Shown piece after piece: positions 18,475 to 43,671 of a stretch of DNA of 64,000 nucleotides. How positions within the stretch are numbered: the stretch's first letter is position 1; each line of letters begins with the position of its first letter. The position numbers and the translations under genes are program-made. A model generated the notes under the pieces. That model searched no databases and had not been told where the DNA came from. It saw only the letters and a list, made by a program, of their open reading frames with translations. Location: the NCBI RefSeq assembly GCF_988242995.1, contig NZ_OZ547043.1, one strand, 5' to 3'.

Positions 18475-18716
18475 GAGAGATATGAAGTCTGGACATAAAC
18501 CTGAAGGCGGTGTACGAGGTTGTGAATAGCGTTAAGGACAACCTGACTTAACCCCGTTCCGTCATGGTTATGCTCCTCTTCTGTAAATATCCTGGCATTA
18601 CTAATGCCAGGATATTTAAAGTGAAAAAGACAGGCATCCATTCCTGAAAACGGGTTCCCTTCCCGGTCATTGTCACTATAGTTTTATACAGGCACTCTCT
18701 GTCAGAATGCTGTTTA

Positions 18717-18914
18717 TTACTGCCCAGAGTTTTGTTGGTATTCATCTACCATTTTTTTGACAAGGCAAAACATTACAGAAATCACAATGCTTAGAAAAAA
18801 TCCCAGAGCCAGGCAAATGGTAGCAGGGTATTTATTTTTTATTTCTGGTGAGCTTATAGTGACACAGCCATCACCGTTCGGATACAATGACCAGTTCCTG
18901 GTCAGGTATATCAT
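18717..18914 (-). CDS. small membrane ORF overlapping the ykgH stop (separate coupled gene or 3' part of frameshifted ykgH)
   Basis: 65-aa ORF, TM helix ATICLALGFFLSIVISVMFCLV, ATGA start/stop overlap with upstream ORF. Confidence 0.35.
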   Translation of the reverse strand: MIYLTRNWSLYPNGDGCVTISSPEIKNKYPATICLALGFFLSIVISVMFCLVKKMVDEYQQNSGQ

Positions 18915-19267
18915 TTTTGTACAGCAGTTGGTAAATCTCTCTTATCTCCTGACCATTCCAGTTTTATTTCTCTGTTCTTGACATCTGGGCTGGTGTGAAA
19001 AAATGTAGTAATTCGCTGAATAACATCTTCAGTCATTGTGGTCTGACAGGCAAAGTTATTATTGCTATCACAGCTAACAAGTATGCCTGGTGTTGTTTGG
19101 TTTATTTTTAGACTGTAAGTCACTTTTATATTATCTTTATTGATATACAGAAACAACAGCACCATTGCCATACAGATAGCTATAATAAAAAGGATAACAC
19201 GAATCTTTTTCTTCAGATAAAATAAAATCTCAATCAGATCGATATCCTGTTTGATTTGTTCACTCAT
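18911..19267 (-). CDS. ykgH: membrane protein (ykgH-like), possibly the 5' part of a frameshifted gene
   Basis: 118-aa ORF with one TM helix (VILFIIAICMAMVLLFLYI); stop TGA overlaps the next ATG in an ATGA junction beside an A5 run. Confidence 0.5.
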   Translation of the reverse strand: MSEQIKQDIDLIEILFYLKKKIRVILFIIAICMAMVLLFLYINKDNIKVTYSLKINQTTPGILVSCDSNNNFACQTTMTEDVIQRITTFFHTSPDVKNREIKLEWSGDKRDLPTAVQK

Positions 19268-19479
19268 AATATATCCAGAAAATAAAATCTGTCGCAGATA
19301 AGATTGTATTAATAGTCTGTATCAGGAATGTTCAGGGTAAATATCAGCAAAAAGCCAGCATCATGAATACTGGATATGAAGCATGAGAGTTACCTCAGTG
19401 TTTTATATAAGGATTCGGTCCTCATAGTAGAACGGTAACTCTCAATCTGATAGGTTCCTGAGTCAGTTCACATCACGAC

Positions 19480-23365: not shown

Positions 23366-25399
23366 ATGACAGACCTTTCACACAGCAGGGAAAAGGACAA
23401 AATCAATCCGGTGGTGTTTTACACTTCCGCCGGACTGATTTTGTTGTTTTCCCTGACAACGATCCTGTTTCGCGACTTCTCGGCCCTGTGGATTGGCCGC
23501 ACGCTGGACTGGGTTTCTAAAACCTTCGGTTGGTACTATCTGCTGGCGGCAACGCTCTATATTGTCTTTGTGGTCTGTATTGCTTGTTCGCGTTTTGGTT
23601 CGGTGAAGCTCGGGCCAGAACAATCCAAACCGGAATTCAGCCTGCTGAGCTGGGCGGCGATGCTGTTTGCTGCCGGGATCGGTATCGACCTGATGTTCTT
23701 CTCCGTAGCCGAACCGGTAACGCAGTATATGCAGCCGCCGGAAGGCGCGGGTCAGACGATTGAGGCCGCGCGTCAGGCGATGGTCTGGACGCTGTTTCAC
23801 TACGGCTTAACCGGCTGGTCGATGTATGCGCTGATGGGCATGGCGCTCGGATACTTTAGCTATCGTTATAATTTGCCGCTCACCATCCGCTCGGCGCTGT
23901 ACCCGATCTTCGGTAAACGGATTAACGGGCCGATTGGTCATTCAGTGGATATTGCAGCGGTAATCGGCACCATCTTCGGTATTGCCACTACGCTCGGTAT
24001 CGGTGTGGTGCAGCTTAACTATGGCTTGAGCGTACTGTTTGATATTCCCGATTCAATGGCGGCGAAAGCGGCACTGATCGCCTTGTCGGTGATCATCGCC
24101 ACGATCTCTGTCACCTCCGGTGTCGATAAGGGCATTCGTGTGTTATCGGAACTTAACGTTGCGCTGGCGCTGGGATTGATCCTTTTCGTGCTGTTTATGG
24201 GCAACACCTCGTTCCTGCTTAATGCGCTGGTGCTGAACGTTGGCGACTATGTGAATCGCTTTATGGGCATGACGCTCAACAGTTTTGCCTTCGACCGTCC
24301 GGTTGAGTGGATGAATAACTGGACGCTCTTCTTCTGGGCATGGTGGGTGGCATGGTCGCCGTTTGTCGGCCTGTTTCTGGCGCGTATCTCGCGCGGGCGT
24401 ACCATTCGCCAGTTCGTGCTGGGCACGTTGATTATTCCGTTTACCTTCACGCTGTTATGGCTCTCGGTGTTCGGCAATAGCGCGCTGTATGAAATCATCC
24501 ACGGCGGCGCGGCATTTGCCGAGGAAGCGATGGTCCATCCGGAGCGCGGCTTCTACAGCCTGCTGGCGCAGTATCCGGCGTTTACCTTTAGCGCCTCCGT
24601 CGCCACCATTACTGGCCTGCTGTTTTATGTGACCTCGGCGGACTCCGGGGCGCTGGTGCTGGGGAATTTCACCTCGCAGCTTAAAGATATCAACAGCGAC
24701 GCCCCCGGCTGGCTGCGCGTCTTCTGGTCGGTGGCGATTGGCCTGCTAACGCTCGGCATGCTGATGACCAACGGGATATCCGCGCTGCAAAACACCACGG
24801 TAATCATGGGGCTGCCGTTCAGCTTTGTGATTTTCTTCGTGATGGCGGGGTTGTATAAATCTCTGAAGGTAGAAGATTACCGCCGTGAAAGTGCCAACCG
24901 TGATACCGCGCCGCGACCGCTGGGGCTTCAGGATCGCCTGAGCTGGAAAAAACGTCTCTCGCGCCTGATGAATTATCCGGGCACGCGTTACACTAAACAG
25001 ATGATGGAGACGGTCTGTTACCCGGCAATGGAAGAAGTGGCGCAGGAGCTGCGGTTGCGCGGCGCGTACGTGGAGCTAAAAAGCCTGCCGCCGGAAGAGG
25101 GACAACAGTTGGGGCATCTGGATTTGTTGGTGCATATGGGCGAAGAGCAAAACTTTGTCTATCAGATTTGGCCGCAGCAATATTCGGTGCCGGGCTTTAC
25201 CTACCGCGCACGTAGCGGTAAATCGACCTACTACCGGCTGGAAACCTTCCTGTTAGAAGGCAGCCAGGGCAACGACCTGATGGACTACAGCAAAGAGCAG
25301 GTGATCACCGATATTCTTGACCAGTACGAGCGGCATCTTAACTTTATCCATCTCCATCGTGAAGCGCCGGGCCATAGCGTGATGTTCCCGGACGCGTGA
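23366..25399 (+). CDS. betT: choline transporter, BCCT family
   Basis: 677 aa, polytopic, divergent from betIBA. Confidence 0.9.
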   Translation: MTDLSHSREKDKINPVVFYTSAGLILLFSLTTILFRDFSALWIGRTLDWVSKTFGWYYLLAATLYIVFVVCIACSRFGSVKLGPEQSKPEFSLLSWAAMLFAAGIGIDLMFFSVAEPVTQYMQPPEGAGQTIEAARQAMVWTLFHYGLTGWSMYALMGMALGYFSYRYNLPLTIRSALYPIFGKRINGPIGHSVDIAAVIGTIFGIATTLGIGVVQLNYGLSVLFDIPDSMAAKAALIALSVIIATISVTSGVDKGIRVLSELNVALALGLILFVLFMGNTSFLLNALVLNVGDYVNRFMGMTLNSFAFDRPVEWMNNWTLFFWAWWVAWSPFVGLFLARISRGRTIRQFVLGTLIIPFTFTLLWLSVFGNSALYEIIHGGAAFAEEAMVHPERGFYSLLAQYPAFTFSASVATITGLLFYVTSADSGALVLGNFTSQLKDINSDAPGWLRVFWSVAIGLLTLGMLMTNGISALQNTTVIMGLPFSFVIFFVMAGLYKSLKVEDYRRESANRDTAPRPLGLQDRLSWKKRLSRLMNYPGTRYTKQMMETVCYPAMEEVAQELRLRGAYVELKSLPPEEGQQLGHLDLLVHMGEEQNFVYQIWPQQYSVPGFTYRARSGKSTYYRLETFLLEGSQGNDLMDYSKEQVITDILDQYERHLNFIHLHREAPGHSVMFPDA

Positions 25400-25412
25400 T
25401 TGTTATTGCATA

Positions 25413-25449
25413 AAACCGCGCCATGTCTGCATATGGCGCGGTTTCTCTT
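25413..25449 (+). terminator. rho-independent terminator downstream of betT
   Basis: aaaccgcgccat-(8 nt loop)-atggcgcggttt followed by tctctt. Confidence 0.45.
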
Positions 25450-26275
25450 ACCTCTTGATACGTTATATCTGTGTACAGTTAAGCCCTTAGTATCGATTGA
25501 TGATTGCCAGGCAACAGATAATAAAAAAGAAAAGAACTATTGAAGCCCAAAACCTACGCTTGGACTGTTGTGAATGTTCAATAAGCTTAGTCTTATTTAA
25601 TGTAAATATTGGTGCTAATTTGAAATGACGCTTTATTCATGGGAAACGCGTAGCGCAAATCAACTAAAATCAATGTAACTGTTTGTTGTTTAAGGTTTAA
25701 TTGTCTGTGTCTGATATTTTATTGATTGTTTTAAATATTGTTTTTATTGTCATTGTTATAATGTTGGCTATCTATTGCTGAATGGATTCAGCCTTAAAAA
25801 GCAGGTTGTTAAGGGATAGGCATAGAGTAATGACGTGTATGCATAACCAACATCTTTACTCATTATGTCATTGAATGTTGACGCTATGTGTTTATGAGGT
25901 TGAGGTATTTTCAGTTGATCTGGATTGTTAAATTCATATAATGCGCCTTTACTCATGAATGGGCGTCAATACGTAGTGGGAAATTATAAATATTGAAATA
26001 GTCCAACTACTTCTTTATTACCAAAAATGAGTATCTGAATTTTAATATTGCATTCTTGCGTGATTATCTCCTGAGTTTGACTTGTGATTACCTTTTTAAG
26101 GTATTTAGCGTAACTGTTTTTGAGCGAGCATCAGAGGTAAAGATAATCTTTTTGATAGTGATGTGGGATGTTATGCGTATGGCATCGCTGATGTTTATGG
26201 TTACCCCTTATGTGTGCTCAGGAATCCACAGGTAATCACTCATACTGAACAGCGATAAAAGATAAAGGTGTGTTC

Positions 26276-27364
26276 ATGAATTCATGTGATTTTCGTGTTT
26301 TTCTGCAAGAGTTCGGTACAACGGTTCATTTGTCATTGCCTGGTAGCGTATCCGAGAAAGAACGACTGCTACTCAAGCTGCTGATGCAGGGAATGTCTGT
26401 AACAGAAATATCACAGTACAGAAATCGCAGTGCAAAGACCATTTCACATCAAAAGAAACAGCTCTTTGAGAAACTGGGGATTCAGAGCGATATTACTTTC
26501 TGGCGGGATATTTTCTTTCAGTACAATCCGGAGATCATATCCGCCACGGGTAATAATAGTCACAAATATATTAATGATAATCACTATCACCATATCGTCA
26601 CGCCTGAAGCCATCAGTCTGGCGTTGGAAAACCATGAGTTTAAACCGTGGATCCAACCGGTTTTCTGCGCGCAGACTGGGGTACTGACGGGCTGTGAGGT
26701 GCTTGTCCGCTGGGAACATCCACAAACGGGAATTATCCCACCGGATCAGTTTATTCCTCTGGCGGAGTCATCTGGTCTTATCGTCATAATGACTCGCCAG
26801 TTGATGAAACAGACTGCGGATATTCTGATGCCGGTAAAACATTTGCTGCCGGATAATTTCCATATTGGCATCAACGTCTCGGCGGGTTGTTTTTTGGCCG
26901 CGGGATTTGAAAAAGAATGCCTGAACCTGGTCAAGAAATTAGGAAACGATAAAATCAAACTGGTTCTCGAGCTAACGGAACGTAACCCTATTCCGGTAAC
27001 GCCAGAAGCCAGAGCGATATTTGACAGCCTTCATCAGCACAACATTACCTTTGCGCTGGATGACTTTGGTACGGGTTATGCGACCTATCGTTACTTGCAG
27101 GCGTTCCCGGTCGATTTTATTAAGATCGATAAGTCATTTGTGCAAATGGCGAGCGTGGACGAAATATCCGGTCATATTGTGGACAATATTGTCGAACTGG
27201 CGCGTAAGCCTGGTCTGAGTATCGTGGCGGAAGGGGTAGAAACCCAGGAGCAGGCGGATTTAATGATCGGCAAAGGCGTTCACTTTTTGCAGGGCTATTT
27301 GTACTCTCCGCCAGTACCGGGTAATAAATTTATCTCTGAATGGGTAATGAAAGCAGGTGGTTGA
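26276..27364 (+). CDS. pdeL: c-di-GMP phosphodiesterase with N-terminal LuxR-type HTH and C-terminal EAL domain
   Basis: ORF 26270..27364; LuxR HTH (LLKLLMQGMSVTEISQYRNRSAKTISHQKKQLFEKLG), EAL-domain motifs (ELTER, DDFGTGY). Confidence 0.85.
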   Translation: MNSCDFRVFLQEFGTTVHLSLPGSVSEKERLLLKLLMQGMSVTEISQYRNRSAKTISHQKKQLFEKLGIQSDITFWRDIFFQYNPEIISATGNNSHKYINDNHYHHIVTPEAISLALENHEFKPWIQPVFCAQTGVLTGCEVLVRWEHPQTGIIPPDQFIPLAESSGLIVIMTRQLMKQTADILMPVKHLLPDNFHIGINVSAGCFLAAGFEKECLNLVKKLGNDKIKLVLELTERNPIPVTPEARAIFDSLHQHNITFALDDFGTGYATYRYLQAFPVDFIKIDKSFVQMASVDEISGHIVDNIVELARKPGLSIVAEGVETQEQADLMIGKGVHFLQGYLYSPPVPGNKFISEWVMKAGG

Positions 27365-36085: not shown

Positions 36086-36379
36086 TACGCATTTGAAACG
36101 CCTGCAATGGTGAATCGTAAGAGATTTAAAGCCCCAGGGAGTGGGGCGGGAATGGTTTGTTAATGAATGATCCTGAACTTTATAATCTCCCGGCATAATT
36201 TCCAGGGGATTATTTGAGAGAAATACACAAAAGTGAGTTTTAACAATATTTATCAAGCCATAAATGTGACCTGCTTCGGATAAAAAAGATTAAAAATAGA
36301 AAAACCAATGATACTCTTGCTGATGGTTATCAACAGTAATTAAGATGTGATTTTTTTCCGTAATCGCGAAAATATTCTC

Positions 36380-36790
36380 ATGACCATAAAAGAAAAAATC
36401 TCACAAAAATATCCCCATGCTTCCTTTTGTACTTTTGGCGATTCAGCAGCGTTGGCCGATCACCTCGCAACGTTGATTGCGACAGGTGTTAAAACAGCTT
36501 CCTGTGGTTCGCTGGCGGGATGTATTGAAGACAACGCATTTCCGATGATTGGTGAGTATAAGATTGTAGAAAATAGCCGTGGTGAGCCTGTCTGTGTTAT
36601 CAGAGTGATTGGCCTGCATTTACTGCGCTTTTCTGATGTCACCGCGGAGCTTGCCCGTAAGGAAGGTGAAGGTGACCTCAGTCTTGAATATTGGCGTAAT
36701 GAACACCGTCGTTTTTTCCAGGCAGAAGGATGCTATTCACCCGAAATGGACGTTATCTTTGAAGAATATGCCCTTATTGACGTTGTGTAG
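36380..36790 (+). CDS. ASCH-domain (PUA-like) protein
   Basis: ORF 36347..36790; start set to MTIKEK; FGDSAALADHLATLIATGVKTASCGS resembles ASCH N-terminal signature. Domain call from motif recall only. Confidence 0.55.
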   Translation: MTIKEKISQKYPHASFCTFGDSAALADHLATLIATGVKTASCGSLAGCIEDNAFPMIGEYKIVENSRGEPVCVIRVIGLHLLRFSDVTAELARKEGEGDLSLEYWRNEHRRFFQAEGCYSPEMDVIFEEYALIDVV

Positions 36791-37040
36791 ATAACTATTT
36801 TTCTACGCGAAATAAGCTCACAAACATAAAGTATCGCTAATTTTGTTTATTTTGCTGTTTTTTACGTGATGATTGTCACACTTATTGTTACTGCCCGTTT
36901 TGTCCATATTTATAACCAAATTTTTAATAGCTGCCTGAAATAGGGCTGTTTATTCTGCATAAAAATATTCGAAAATTCTTATTCTCTCCAGCGCGCTAAT
37001 TTGGGCGAACACTTCCTGACTACCCTGCAATGAGGCTGAA

Positions 37041-41563: not shown

Positions 41564-42613
41564 ATGAAGATCAAAGCTGTTGGTGCATATTCCGCTAAAC
41601 AACCGCTGGAACCGATGGATATTACCAGGCGTGAACCGGGACCGCATGATGTCAAAATTGAAATCGCTTACTGTGGCGTCTGCCATTCCGATCTCCACCA
41701 GGTCCGTTCCGAGTGGGCGGGGACGGTTTACCCCTGCGTGCCGGGTCATGAAATTGTGGGGCGTGTGGTAGCCGTTGGTGATCAGGTAGAAAAACATGCG
41801 CCGGGCGATCTGGTTGGTGTCGGCTGTATTGTCGACAGTTGTAAACATTGCGAAGAGTGTGAAGACGGGCTGGAAAACTACTGTGATCACATGACCGGCA
41901 CCTATAACTCGCCGACGCCGGACGAACCGGGCCATACTCTGGGCGGCTACTCACAACAGATCGTCGTTCATGAGCGATATGTTCTGCGTATTCGTCACCC
42001 GCAAGAGCAGCTGGCGGCGGTGGCACCTTTGTTGTGTGCAGGGATCACCACGTATTCGCCGCTACGTCACTGGCAGGTCGGTCCGGGTAAAAAAGTGGGC
42101 GTGGTCGGCATCGGCGGTCTGGGACATATGGGGATTAAGCTGGCCCACGCGATGGGGGCGCATGTGGTGGCATTTACCACTTCTGAGTCAAAACGCGAAG
42201 CGGCAAAAGCCCTGGGGGCCGATGAAGTTGTTAACTCACGCAATGCCGATGAGATGGCGGCTCATGTGAAGAGTTTCGATTTCATTTTGAATACAGTAGC
42301 TGCGCCACATAATCTCGACGATTTTACCACCTTGCTGAAGCGTGATGGCACCATGACGCTGGTTGGTGCGCCTGCGACACCGCATAAATCACCGGAAGTT
42401 TTCAACCTGATCATGAAACGCCGTGCGATAGCCGGTTCTATGATTGGCGGCATTCCAGAAACACAGGAGATGCTCGATTTTTGCGCCGAACATGGCATCG
42501 TGGCTGATATAGAGATGATTCGGGCCGATCAAATTAATGAAGCCTATGAGCGAATGCTGCGTGGTGATGTGAAATATCGTTTTGTTATCGATAATCGCAC
42601 ACTAACAGACTGA
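41564..42613 (+). CDS. yahK: NADPH-dependent aldehyde reductase, zinc-dependent MDR/ADH family
   Basis: 349 aa; GVCHSDLH and GHEIVGRV zinc motifs, GIGGLGHMG NAD(P)-binding motif. Confidence 0.9.
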   Translation: MKIKAVGAYSAKQPLEPMDITRREPGPHDVKIEIAYCGVCHSDLHQVRSEWAGTVYPCVPGHEIVGRVVAVGDQVEKHAPGDLVGVGCIVDSCKHCEECEDGLENYCDHMTGTYNSPTPDEPGHTLGGYSQQIVVHERYVLRIRHPQEQLAAVAPLLCAGITTYSPLRHWQVGPGKKVGVVGIGGLGHMGIKLAHAMGAHVVAFTTSESKREAAKALGADEVVNSRNADEMAAHVKSFDFILNTVAAPHNLDDFTTLLKRDGTMTLVGAPATPHKSPEVFNLIMKRRAIAGSMIGGIPETQEMLDFCAEHGIVADIEMIRADQINEAYERMLRGDVKYRFVIDNRTLTD

Positions 42614-42648
42614 AAAAATTAATAAATATCCTGTGGTTTAACATATTA

Positions 42649-42690
42649 ATTTCGCTCTCCACTTAACTTTTTAGTTAAGGAGAGCGAAAT
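42649..42690. repeat. long inverted repeat downstream of yahK (12-bp outer stem plus inner 5-bp stem, T-rich loop)
   Basis: atttcgctctcc...ggagagcgaaat with nested ttaac/gttaa; no clear U-tract. Confidence 0.35.
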
Positions 42691-42855
42691 AATATCAAAG
42701 TAGCAGTAAAACCTATAACGTAAATTCAAATTGTTAAATTAACTCCCTCCAGGACACAATACTTCACACGTTAGTTATGAGCGATTTCTGATAGTGCATG
42801 GTTTAATCAGGGCTTTATTATCTGCGACGTTTATTTTTATTTAAGAGAGATCGCG

Positions 42856-43671
42856 ATGATATCATTAAAAGCTCCGCACAATAATTTGATGCCATATACG
42901 CAACAAAGCATACTTAATACAGTAAAAAACAATCAGTTACCAGAGGATATCAAAAGCTCCCTGGTTTCCTGTGTCGATATATTCAAGGTTTTGATTAAAC
43001 AATATTATGATTATCCTTATGATTGTCGTGATGATTTAGTCGATGACGACAAACTCATTCATCTCATGGCTGCCGTACGAGACTGTGAGTGGTCAGACGA
43101 TAACGCACTCACCATAAATGTGCAGTTTAATGATTTCCCAGGATTTTATGACTGGATGGATTACCCTGATCACCCGGTTAAGTTTGTTTTTCGCATACTT
43201 GAAAATCAAAAAGGGACAGTTTGGGTATATGACCAGGATGATGCGTTTCTTGATATTAAAGCAAATGTGCAGGCTGGACGCTTTACCGGGCTTAAGAAAT
43301 TAGTGCAGTTTATCGATTCAGTGCGAACAGATTGCAAATGTATTCTTCTTGAACACCATATGCCTTTGCTGAGACTTTTCCCTAAAGGGAAAGAGTGTAT
43401 GCATGTGGAAAAATGGCTTCGCGAAATGTCGTCTATTCCGGAGACCGACGCACCCATTAAGCAGGCGCTTGCGCATGGATTATTATTACACTTAAAAAAT
43501 ATCTACCCTGTTTTTCCTGAATCACTGGTGATGTTATTGCTCTCTGTTCTGGACGTAAAAACATACAGAGATGATGCGCGATTAAATCAATGGATATCTA
43601 ATAGAGTGCAGGAATTAGGTGACAGATATTATCCTGTAAATAAGCACGTTAAAATCCGCTACACTCTTTAG
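42856..43671 (+). CDS. yahL: uncharacterised protein
   Basis: 271-aa ORF; no recognisable domain; name from recalled K-12 synteny. Confidence 0.65.
   Translation: MISLKAPHNNLMPYTQQSILNTVKNNQLPEDIKSSLVSCVDIFKVLIKQYYDYPYDCRDDLVDDDKLIHLMAAVRDCEWSDDNALTINVQFNDFPGFYDWMDYPDHPVKFVFRILENQKGTVWVYDQDDAFLDIKANVQAGRFTGLKKLVQFIDSVRTDCKCILLEHHMPLLRLFPKGKECMHVEKWLREMSSIPETDAPIKQALAHGLLLHLKNIYPVFPESLVMLLLSVLDVKTYRDDARLNQWISNRVQELGDRYYPVNKHVKIRYTL

What the first reader, a model, noticed from the sequence alone, without database searches (positions are those of the whole stretch)
25450..26275. Unusually long (~830 bp) AT-rich non-coding leader upstream of pdeL
Between the betT terminator and the pdeL start there is no credible ORF and the sequence is strongly AT-rich with many A/T tracts. 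This is typical of nucleoid-protein-silenced, multi-input promoters and could also hold an unannotated small RNA or leader peptide controlling the c-di-GMP phosphodiesterase.
Basis: seen in the sequence. Interest (0 to 1): 0.3.

Follow-up and report, generated by a model that had tools for sequence, protein, structure and literature searches.

The report
Known H-NS-silenced pdeL regulatory region
The long AT-rich gap between betT and pdeL is real, but it is the already well-studied control region of the E. coli pdeL gene, and it also contains the known tiny gene yahV, so it is ordinary rather than new.

Summary
betT ends at 25399 and pdeL starts at 26276. The 876-bp gap has 34.8% GC against 50.4% for the window and is its most AT-rich stretch.

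Two details are wrong:
- The gap holds yahV (25707-25781). This 24-codon ORF is annotated in K-12, and its tagged product has been detected.
- Only the last ~328 nt is a transcribed leader. The rest is upstream regulatory DNA.

The interpretation, a nucleoid-protein-silenced multi-input promoter, is correct and already published for K-12:
- ChIP-chip found H-NS, Fis, IHF and RNA polymerase at this region.
- Cra and PdeL co-activate the promoter.
- PdeL counters H-NS silencing through a distal box (CIB) and a proximal box (CDB).

I located these elements here:
- CIB palindrome: 25580-25597.
- Cra box: 25777-25792.
- Promoter TTGATC-16-TATAAT: 25915-25942.

K-12 Cappable-seq starts map to about 25948, 26034 and 26184.

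Across Escherichia alleles only these islands, the ribosome-binding site and partly the proximal leader are conserved. yahV and the spacers drift at or above the neutral rate. No Rfam family, terminator or conserved leader peptide was found.

Verdict: already known, low interest.

The parts
25413..25452 (+). betT intrinsic terminator: hairpin 25413-25444 followed by the T-rich tail TTTCTCTT
   Evidence: The two 12-nt arms are 100% complementary with an 8-nt loop (I4). The sequence was read. It is the last stretch shared with genomes that carry ehaA instead of this segment.
25580..25597 (.). CIB, the distal Cra-independent PdeL box: palindrome AATAAG-N6-CTTATT. It lies about 360 bp upstream of the main start.
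   Evidence: The K-12 EMSA oligos 'CIB fwd/rev' map to 25567-25633. The palindrome occurs once in the window with no mismatch. Block 25574-25600 differs by only 4-11% in alleles whose spacers differ by 39-52%.
25707..25781 (+). yahV homologue: GTG start, 24 codons, product MSDILLIVLNIVFIVIVIMLAIYC. Its stop codon lies inside the Cra box.
   Evidence: It is homologous in position to the K-12 CDS 'protein YahV'. The K-12 protein was detected by tagging. The ORF is intact in E. coli alleles but broken in two deeper Escherichia lineages. Eight nucleotide differences from K-12 give 7 amino-acid changes.
25777..25792 (.). Cra (FruR) operator GCTGAATGGATTCAGC
   Evidence: It matches the core of the K-12 'CB CDB' EMSA oligo exactly. 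It is the only such site in the window. It shows 0-6% divergence across all alleles.
25793..25805 (.). CDB, the Cra-dependent PdeL box: a half-site next to the Cra box. This allele reads CTTAAAAAGCAGG; K-12 reads CTTAATGAGTGGG.
   Evidence: Placed by mapping the K-12 'CB CDB' oligo, which shows 5 substitutions here. The box is poorly conserved between alleles.
25915..25942 (+). Main pdeL promoter P1: TTGATC (25915-25920), 16-bp spacer, TATAAT (25937-25942)
   Evidence: The consensus scan scores it 10 of 12. Shimada 2014 list the same hexamers for the betT>yahA spacer. It lies inside the RNA polymerase EMSA fragment, 25776-25954. It has 0/45 differences from K-12 and 7-9% from the deep alleles.
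25948..26275 (+). pdeL 5' leader from P1, about 328 nt. Two weaker internal starts map to about 26034 and about 26184.
   Evidence: K-12 Cappable-seq plus-strand starts are at 331267, 331353 and 331503 in U00096.2. SMRT-Cappable-seq gives the b0315 operon start at 332042 in U00096.3. Coordinates were transferred through the yahV and pdeL positions and an alignment without indels.
26116..26225 (+). Candidate long imperfect RNA hairpin in the leader. Its function is unproven.
   Evidence: RNAalifold predicts it on 5 alleles. Folding z-scores are -2.5, -5.4 and -1.2 in three lineages, and the minus strand folds far less well. There are no compensatory changes. The whole leader folds with z = -1.0.
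26191..26235 (+). 14-codon upstream ORF (MFMVTPYVCSGIHR): weak candidate, probably not a gene
   Evidence: It is the only small ORF intact in all 9 alleles compared. Every substitution is nonsynonymous, and there is no Shine-Dalgarno sequence.
26264..27364 (+). pdeL Shine-Dalgarno AAAGG (26264-26268) and pdeL coding sequence (ATG 26276 to stop 27364)
   Evidence: From the ORF list and the sequence. RefSeq annotates identical or nearly identical genomes this way. The last ~14 nt before the ATG are shared even with ehaA-type genomes.

Best explanation
The segment is the transcriptional control region of pdeL. pdeL encodes a c-di-GMP phosphodiesterase that is also a LuxR-type regulator. This is the regulatory architecture already worked out in E. 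coli K-12.

How it works:
- The AT-rich DNA is coated and silenced by H-NS, with Fis and IHF also bound.
- The sigma-70 promoter P1 (TTGATC-16-TATAAT, 25915-25942) starts transcription at about 25948 and gives a ~328-nt leader. Two weaker starts lie inside the leader.
- Cra binds the operator at 25777-25792. There it helps PdeL bind the adjacent CDB half-site.
- At low c-di-GMP, PdeL also occupies the distal palindrome CIB (25580-25597). It competes with H-NS there, and RNA polymerase is recruited.
- The result is a bistable, autoregulated switch.

Shown here:
- The sequence elements, their positions and their selective conservation.
- A small ORF, yahV (25707-25781), lies between CIB and the Cra box. 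It evolves without protein-level constraint.
- Most of the remaining length is fast-evolving AT-rich spacer.

Taken from K-12 papers: protein binding, silencing and the transcription starts.

Inferred: that this allele, about 6% different from K-12, behaves the same way.
For: Identity of the locus:
- The 1001-bp query is 100-93.6% identical to the betT-pdeL region of 3663 of 5426 complete E. coli genomes, including K-12.

K-12 reagents map onto the window:
- The CIB fragment maps to 25567-25633, the Cra/CDB oligo to 25776-25805, and the end of the RNA polymerase fragment to 25954.

Motifs:
- The Cra box and the CIB palindrome each occur once in the window.
- The best promoter match equals the one listed for the yahA spacer.

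Published function in K-12:
- H-NS, Fis, IHF and RNA polymerase ChIP-chip.
- RpoD SELEX with an H-NS mark.
- Derepression in an hns mutant; Cra Kd 49 nM; PdeL Kd 76 nM at CDB and 573 nM at CIB; competition between H-NS and PdeL at CIB.
- Hysteresis is lost without CIB.

Transcription starts:
- The strongest K-12 Cappable-seq start (331267, U00096.2) and the SMRT-Cappable-seq start of the b0315 operon (332042, U00096.3) map to 25948, 6 nt after the -10 hexamer.

Phylogenetic footprint against K-12, Escherichia sp. E1V33 and a divergent E. coli lineage:
- CIB differs by 4-11%, the Cra box by 0-6%, the promoter by 0-9% and the ribosome-binding site by 0-6%.
- Spacers differ by 16-52%.
- Fourfold-degenerate sites of pdeL differ by 7.8%, 12.5% and 23.3% in the same three comparisons.
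Against: - All binding, silencing and start-site data come from K-12. This allele differs at 61 positions in the gap.
- The differences include 5 substitutions in the CDB oligo region. They also include the -10 of the proximal K-12 start, TATACG in K-12 and TATGCG here.
- The H-NS nucleation motif TCGATAAATT is not enriched. The gap holds 2 sites with 2 mismatches each, and the window total equals chance.
- The Cra box sits about 164 bp and CIB about 360 bp upstream of the start, unusually far for simple activation. The published authors themselves leave the looping/anti-silencing mechanism open.
- The transfer of start coordinates relies on an inferred ~776-bp offset between the two K-12 genome versions.
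Confidence: 0.9

Rival explanations
1. The segment is mainly a gene locus. In this reading its important content is yahV, a functional 24-residue single-pass membrane protein, possibly linked to osmotic stress or motility. The AT-richness would partly reflect its hydrophobic codons.
For: - The ORF is intact here at 25707-25781.
- RefSeq annotates it as 'protein YahV' in K-12-type genomes and as 'hypothetical protein' in the 96-97% alleles.
- Tagged YahV was detected in K-12.
- A pangenome study proposes a link to osmotic stress or motility.
Against: - Eight nucleotide differences from K-12 give 7 amino-acid changes.
- The ORF region diverges by 11%, 37% and 43%, against 7.8%, 12.5% and 23.3% at pdeL fourfold sites.
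- The GTG start is GTA in a 98.5% allele. The ORF is interrupted in both deeper lineages.
- There is no well-spaced Shine-Dalgarno sequence.
- K-12 Cappable-seq lists no plus-strand start between the betT terminator and yahV.
- PGAP does not call the ORF in genomes with this window's own allele.
- No NCBIfam model matches.
- It covers 75 of the 826 bp.
Confidence: 0.25
2. The ~328-nt leader carries a cis-acting RNA control element. Candidates are the conserved ~110-nt hairpin at 26116-26225, a 14-codon upstream ORF, or an sRNA or Rho target. Such an element would set pdeL expression after initiation.
For: - The proximal leader (26090-26262) is more conserved than the neutral rate in the most distant allele: 16% against 23%.
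- The same long hairpin is predicted in three lineages, with z down to -5.4. It is much more stable on the sense strand.
- One upstream ORF is intact in all 9 alleles.
- ChIP-chip reported RNA polymerase bound at the yahA regulatory region without moving into the gene.
- pdeL is thermoregulated in CFT073.
Against: - No Rfam match at E <= 10 is relevant.
- The whole leader folds no better than shuffles, z = -1.0.
- None of the 66 predicted pairs shows a compensatory change, and about half of the one-sided changes break pairs.
- No intrinsic terminator was found.
- The leader is G-rich and C-poor (C/G 0.70), which is unfavourable for Rho loading.
- All substitutions in the upstream ORF are nonsynonymous and it has no Shine-Dalgarno sequence.
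- Stalled polymerase and thermoregulation are both expected from H-NS silencing alone.
- Conservation could equally reflect the internal promoters or downstream H-NS sites.
Confidence: 0.12
3. Apart from a short promoter module, the segment is evolutionary filler. In this reading it is an AT-rich, largely unconstrained spacer occupying the slot that holds the ehaA autotransporter gene in other Escherichia. Its length would have no function.
For: - Between the betT terminator and about 14 nt before the pdeL ATG, E. coli has two alternative fillings. One is this ~830-bp segment. The other is a 574-bp spacer, ehaA (3984 bp) and a 141-bp spacer.
- E. albertii and E. whittamii have the autotransporter arrangement.
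- Spacers within the segment evolve at or above the neutral rate.
- IS1 insertions and an IS1-linked deletion are tolerated here.
Against: - The conserved islands are spread over about 700 bp: CIB, Cra box, promoter, proximal leader and ribosome-binding site.
- The distal CIB at about -360 is functionally required in K-12.
- H-NS silencing needs extended AT-rich DNA, so the length itself is plausibly functional.
Confidence: 0.2

Closest known systems
E. coli K-12 pdeL (yahA) promoter region, as dissected by Reinders et al. (J Bacteriol 2016; bioRxiv 2021) with Shimada et al. Cra SELEX
   Same: - Same locus, flanked by the same genes.
- The Cra box is identical.
- The CIB palindrome is the same apart from one spacer base.
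- The P1 promoter block is identical (0/45 differences).
- The leader is almost identical (9 differences in 25951-26262).

   Different: - This is another allele, 93.9% identical over the query.
- 25450-25849 is 12% diverged, against about 2.5% in pdeL.
- The CDB half-site and its flank differ.
- The -10 of the proximal K-12 start is weakened.
- YahV differs at 7 of 24 residues.

Classical H-NS-silenced AT-rich control regions of E. coli, such as bgl and proU (from general knowledge)
   Same: - A long AT-rich tract around the promoter.
- Silencing that a specific regulator can counter.
- IS1 insertions occur in natural isolates, as is known for activation of bgl.
   Different: - The counter-silencer here is the gene's own product, and c-di-GMP controls it.
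- No effect of the IS1 insertions on pdeL expression has been tested.
- No consensus H-NS nucleation site is present.
Upstream region of ehaA in ehaA-positive E. coli (e.g. strain CP55_Sichuan, L004 3051-3624)
   Same: - It carries the same Cra box (GCTGAATGGATTCAG).
- It has a PdeL-box-like palindrome (AATAAG-N5-CTTAT).
- It has a near-identical promoter (TTGATT-16-TATAAT GCGC).
- The spacing from Cra box to -10 is nearly the same, 155 against 157 bp.
- Local alignment of this module scores z = 5.5 against shuffles.

   Different: - It drives ehaA, not pdeL. There pdeL lies behind ehaA, a terminator and a 141-bp spacer.
- The distal part and the leader show no detectable similarity (z -0.9 to 0.5).
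- The palindrome lies downstream of the Cra box there, not upstream.
YahV (b4730), a small membrane protein of K-12 (VanOrsdel et al. 2018)
   Same: Same position, same length of 24 codons, same hydrophobic single-helix character and same GTG start.
   Different: 17 of 24 residues are identical. No expression data exist for this allele, and PGAP does not annotate it in genomes carrying this allele.

Membership tests
H-NS-silenced AT-rich regulatory region | Several hundred bp with A+T content well above the genome average | tested here: met
   GC is 0.341-0.348 against 0.504 for the window, and this is the lowest-GC 826-bp stretch of the window.
H-NS-silenced AT-rich regulatory region | H-NS occupancy in vivo and derepression in an hns mutant | not testable with these tools
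   Published for the K-12 allele only: ChIP-chip, the SELEX 'HNS' mark, and hns-mutant derepression with an EMSA.
H-NS-silenced AT-rich regulatory region | High-affinity nucleation motif TCGATAAATT | tested here: not met
   The gap holds only 2 sites, each with 2 mismatches. The window total of 72 equals the chance expectation of 70. The motif is not obligatory for H-NS binding.
Cra (FruR) regulon operator | Palindromic Cra box upstream of the regulated promoter | tested here: met
   GCTGAATGGATTCAGC at 25777-25792 is the only such site in the window. It is identical to the core of the K-12 oligo that binds Cra at 49 nM and is invariant across alleles.
PdeL-autoregulated promoter | Distal Cra-independent PdeL palindrome (CIB) | tested here: met
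   AATAAG-N6-CTTATT at 25580-25597 lies inside the mapped CIB EMSA fragment. It differs by 4-11% across alleles.
PdeL-autoregulated promoter | Cra-dependent PdeL half-site (CDB) next to the Cra box | tested here: inconclusive
   The position is conserved but the sequence differs from K-12 (CTTAAT... in K-12, CTTAAA... here), with 5 substitutions in the oligo region. Binding was not tested.
Sigma-70 promoter with a mapped start | -35/-10 hexamers with a transcription start 6-8 nt downstream | tested here: met
   TTGATC-16-TATAAT. K-12 Cappable-seq and SMRT-Cappable-seq starts transfer to 25948. The promoter block is identical to K-12. The start itself was measured in K-12, not in this strain.
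yahV small-protein gene | Intact ORF at the homologous position | tested here: met
   25707-25781, GTG start, 24 codons.
yahV small-protein gene | Purifying selection on the protein, and conservation beyond close relatives | tested here: not met
   Seven of 8 differences from K-12 change the amino acid. The start is lost in one E. coli allele, and the ORF is broken in E1V33 and the divergent E. coli lineage. Divergence is at or above that of fourfold sites.
Described cis-regulatory RNA or sRNA (Rfam) | Match to a covariance model, or structure supported by covariation | tested here: not met
   Only three chance-level hits were found, with E 8.5-9.9, far below the gathering scores. None of the 66 predicted pairs shows a compensatory change. 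The whole-leader z-score is -1.0.
Leader-peptide transcription attenuator | Translated upstream ORF followed by an intrinsic terminator before the gene | tested here: not met
   No terminator-like site lies in 25300-26400. The one conserved upstream ORF has no Shine-Dalgarno sequence and only nonsynonymous changes.

The most novel reading that the evidence does not exclude
The 328-nt pdeL leader may contain a functional RNA element. The candidate is the ~110-nt hairpin at 26116-26225, which recurs in three Escherichia lineages. The weak internal start at about 26184 would bypass it. Such an element would add a post-initiation layer, for example temperature- or elongation-dependent, to the c-di-GMP switch. 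Nothing of the kind has been described for pdeL in the papers I could read.
Probability: 0.12. Interest if true: 0.4.

Novelty: already known. Interest (0 to 1): 0.1.

Why it matters
pdeL encodes a bistable switch that sets global c-di-GMP levels, and with them motility, biofilm formation and sensitivity to phage N4. Its control region therefore matters biologically. However, silencing by H-NS, the inputs from Cra and PdeL, the transcription starts and the small gene yahV are all already published for K-12, so the finding adds nothing new.

Three by-products of this check may be useful:
- This allele differs from K-12 exactly in the CDB box and in the proximal promoter. Strains may therefore differ in how the switch is tuned.
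- yahV shows no protein-level constraint.
- The same Cra/PdeL-box/promoter module sits in front of the adhesin gene ehaA in EHEC-type genomes. This suggests a testable link between the c-di-GMP switch and adhesin expression.

Tried and rejected
- Rfam scan at a permissive threshold: only three chance-level hits, to eukaryotic snoRNA and unrelated sRNA models. Rejected.
- Terminator scan of the gap: none found, so there is no attenuator. The scan also missed the betT terminator, which the repeat search found.
- H-NS nucleation motif search: uninformative.
- A/T-tract enrichment: not above what composition predicts.
- Small ORFs: the 47-, 43-, 26-, 62-, 30-, 59- and 31-codon ORFs all lose their start or frame in other alleles. 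Rejected as genes.
- Long-range pairing 26084-26093 with 26230-26239, 10 perfect bp (I13): not kept in E1V33, and the left arm is deleted in the divergent E. coli lineage. Rejected.
- Hypothesis that the segment is a simple deletion derivative of the ehaA cassette: only the Cra-to-promoter module is similar. The distal part, the leader and both ends of ehaA are not. Rejected as stated.
- NCBIfam search for a YahV model: none exists.
- My recollection that yahA was a BglJ-RcsB target in Salscheider 2014: the paper does not mention yahA. Dropped.
- Papers not held in the library: Reinders 2016, Yilmaz 2020 and Shimada 2011.
- Literature search for a published ehaA-pdeL link: returned only noise.

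Full report
**What is at the coordinates.**
- The window is E. coli. betT is the 677-codon ORF 23366-25399, and pdeL (362 codons, ATG at 26276) runs to 27364.
- RefSeq annotation of identical or near-identical genomes names both genes.
- The gap is 25400-26275, 876 bp. A perfect 12-bp hairpin at 25413-25444, followed by TTTCTCTT, is the betT terminator. The finding therefore starts just after it and ends exactly at the pdeL start.
- GC is 0.348 for the gap and 0.341 for the finding's interval, against 0.504 for the window. No other 826-bp stretch of the 64 kb is as AT-rich.
- The number of A/T tracts is what this composition gives by chance.

**How common it is.** Of 5426 complete E. coli genomes, 5220 match some part of a 1001-bp query centred on the gap, and 3663 hold at least 80% of it. 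K-12 MG1655 is 93.9% identical.

- K-12-type genomes carry a 75-nt CDS 'protein YahV' in the gap. It corresponds to window 25707-25781: GTG start, product MSDILLIVLNIVFIVIVIMLAIYC.
- VanOrsdel et al. detected the tagged K-12 product VCDILLNVLNIVFIGIAIILVIIC, encoded between betT and pdeL (PMC6001520). A pangenome paper discusses it as b4730 (PMC9976479).
- 'No credible ORF' is therefore wrong as stated.
- The ORF nevertheless looks unconstrained:
  - Eight nucleotide differences from K-12 give 7 amino-acid changes.
  - The GTG is GTA in a 98.5% allele.
  - The frame is broken in the two deeper Escherichia lineages.
  - K-12 Cappable-seq lists no plus-strand start between the betT terminator and yahV. 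Transcription probably comes from read-through of betT; this step is inferred.

**What the region does, according to published K-12 work.**
[quoted passage not shown] The polymerase did not move into the gene (PMC1636352).
- Shimada et al. found that RpoD holoenzyme binds the betT>yahA spacer. They marked it as an H-NS site and listed TTGATC-16-TATAAT as its best promoter match (PMC3946193).
- Reinders et al. (bioRxiv 10.1101/2021.10.01.462762) reported the following:
  - Cra (Kd 49 nM) and PdeL (Kd 76 nM) bind a proximal site, and PdeL binding there needs Cra. This site is the CDB.
  - PdeL alone binds a distal palindrome, the CIB (Kd 573 nM), where it competes with H-NS.
  - Both proteins help recruit RNA polymerase.
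  - c-di-GMP controls the system, and hysteresis collapses without CIB.

**Mapping these elements onto the window.** The oligos in Table S4 of that preprint locate as follows:

| Element | Window coordinates |
|---|---|
| CIB fragment | 25567-25633, with the palindrome AATAAG-N6-CTTATT at 25580-25597 |
| Cra box plus CDB oligo | 25776-25805, with the Cra box GCTGAATGGATTCAGC at 25777-25792 |
| End of the RNA polymerase fragment | 25954 |

- The only strong promoter match in the gap is TTGATC-16-TATAAT at 25915-25942.
- K-12 Cappable-seq lists plus-strand starts at 331267 (the strongest), 331353 and 331503 in U00096.2.
- SMRT-Cappable-seq gives 332042 in U00096.3 as the start of the b0315 transcript.
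- I transferred these coordinates using yahV (331802 in U00096.3), the yahV-to-pdeL distance and the ~776-bp offset between the two genome versions. I recalled that offset from memory, and the 775-bp difference between the two datasets supports it.
- On that basis the starts lie 328, 242 and 92 nt before the ATG. No indels separate K-12 and the window downstream of 25472, so they fall at about 25948, 26034 and 26184.
- The first is 6 nt after the -10 hexamer.
- Only the last ~328 nt of the '830-bp leader' is therefore leader.

**Comparative evidence.**
- pdeL orthologues were found only in Escherichia.
- I aligned nine alleles of the gap: seven from E. coli genomes, plus Escherichia sp. E1V33 and a divergent E. 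coli lineage.
- Against pdeL fourfold-degenerate sites as a neutral yardstick, the conserved and variable blocks are:

| Block | K-12 | E1V33 | Divergent E. coli |
|---|---|---|---|
| pdeL fourfold sites (yardstick) | 7.8% | 12.5% | 23.3% |
| CIB | 4% | 7% | 11% |
| Cra box | 6% | 6% | 0% |
| Promoter | 0% | 7% | 9% |
| Ribosome-binding site | 0% | 6% | 6% |
| Proximal leader 26090-26262 | 2% | 16% | 16% |
| yahV | 11% | 37% | 43% |
| CDB flank | 16% | 50% | 43% |

- The other spacers differ by up to 52%.
- Against K-12 alone, 25450-25849 is 12% diverged, whereas betT and pdeL are about 2-2.5% diverged.
- This is the pattern of a regulatory region made of short operators set in fast-evolving AT-rich spacer.

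**The leader.**
- No Rfam family matches, and there is no terminator.
- The whole leader folds no better than shuffles, z = -1.0.
- A long imperfect hairpin at 26116-26225 is predicted in all lineages, with z = -2.5, -5.4 and -1.2. It is much weaker on the opposite strand.
- None of the 66 predicted pairs shows a compensatory change.
- The leader is C-poor (C/G 0.70), which does not favour Rho loading.
- A 14-codon upstream ORF at 26191-26235 is intact in all nine alleles. It has only nonsynonymous changes and no Shine-Dalgarno sequence.
- I treat an RNA-level element as possible but unsupported.

**Context outside the finding.**
- About 28% of the genomes match only up to the betT terminator.
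- In the two I inspected, the slot holds a 574-bp spacer, the autotransporter gene ehaA (3984 bp), a terminator and a 141-bp spacer before pdeL.
- E. whittamii has an autotransporter gene there, confirmed by Pfam. The E. albertii upstream sequence aligns with it.
- The two fillings share only the terminator on the left and about 14 nt before the ATG on the right.
- The ehaA upstream spacer nevertheless carries the same Cra box, a PdeL-box-like palindrome and a near-identical promoter, at nearly the same spacing. Module alignment scores z = 5.5, and the other parts are not similar.
- This suggests a shared regulatory module. I found no paper on it, and its function is untested.

**Verdict.**
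- The main interpretation is correct and already in the literature.
- The speculative extras (an sRNA or a leader peptide) are not supported.
- Novelty: already known. Interest: low.

Noticed in passing
L004 3051-3624; L049; L055 6551-7122 (ehaA-positive E. coli): In genomes where ehaA fills the slot between betT and pdeL, the spacer upstream of ehaA carries the same Cra box, a PdeL-box-like palindrome (AATAAG-N5-CTTAT) and a near-identical promoter (TTGATT-16-TATAAT). The spacing matches that of the pdeL control region here. The adhesin gene may therefore be under the Cra/PdeL/c-di-GMP switch.
   Followed up: partly
window 26121-26129 (L003 1272-2057); window ~26033 (L054 3183 onward): Natural IS1 insertions occur in the pdeL leader. 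One has the 9-bp target duplication TGAGCGAGC between P1 and pdeL, in a strain otherwise identical to the window. Another is followed by a deletion that removes pdeL through to just before yahL. A third genome (H4) also has an IS1 here. The effect on pdeL expression is unknown.
   Followed up: partly
window 25793-25817 and 26175: Two allelic differences from K-12 fall in functional elements. The CDB half-site and its flank read CTTAAAAAGCAGG here and CTTAATGAGTGGG in K-12. The -10 of the proximal K-12 start reads TGtTATGCG here and TGtTATACG in K-12 and most other alleles.
   Followed up: no
window 25450-25849: The distal half of the gap is 12% diverged from K-12, while the flanking genes are about 2-2.5% diverged. 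E. coli genomes fall into distinct allele classes, at >=99%, 95-99% and 90-95% identity to the query.
   Followed up: partly
L005 and L006, 1-3100: In Escherichia sp. E1V33 and a divergent E. coli lineage the bet operon is absent. ykgE-F-G (lutABC-like) lies directly upstream of the homologous AT-rich segment. A terminator hairpin homologous to the one after betT is retained.
   Followed up: partly
window ~25352 (inside the betT 3' end): K-12 Cappable-seq lists weak plus-strand starts inside betT, at U00096.2 330673 and a stronger one at 330322. These are the nearest upstream starts that could feed read-through transcripts to yahV.
   Followed up: no
window 25952-25960 and 26280-26288: The 5' end of the P1 transcript (CUCAUGAAU) is nearly complementary to the first codons of pdeL (AUUCAUGUG), and the two pair in the minimum-free-energy fold. 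The fold as a whole is not significant.
   Followed up: no
L009 (Stappia sp. contig, 385 bp) and L014 (Collinsella MAG contig): Sequences with 99% and 84% protein identity to the query PdeL (tblastn) sit on contigs attributed to unrelated organisms. This is most likely contamination or mis-binning.
   Followed up: no
window 18584-19409, 42567-43392, 36158-36983: These are the next most AT-rich stretches of the window, with GC 0.356, 0.362 and 0.377. I did not examine them.
   Followed up: no
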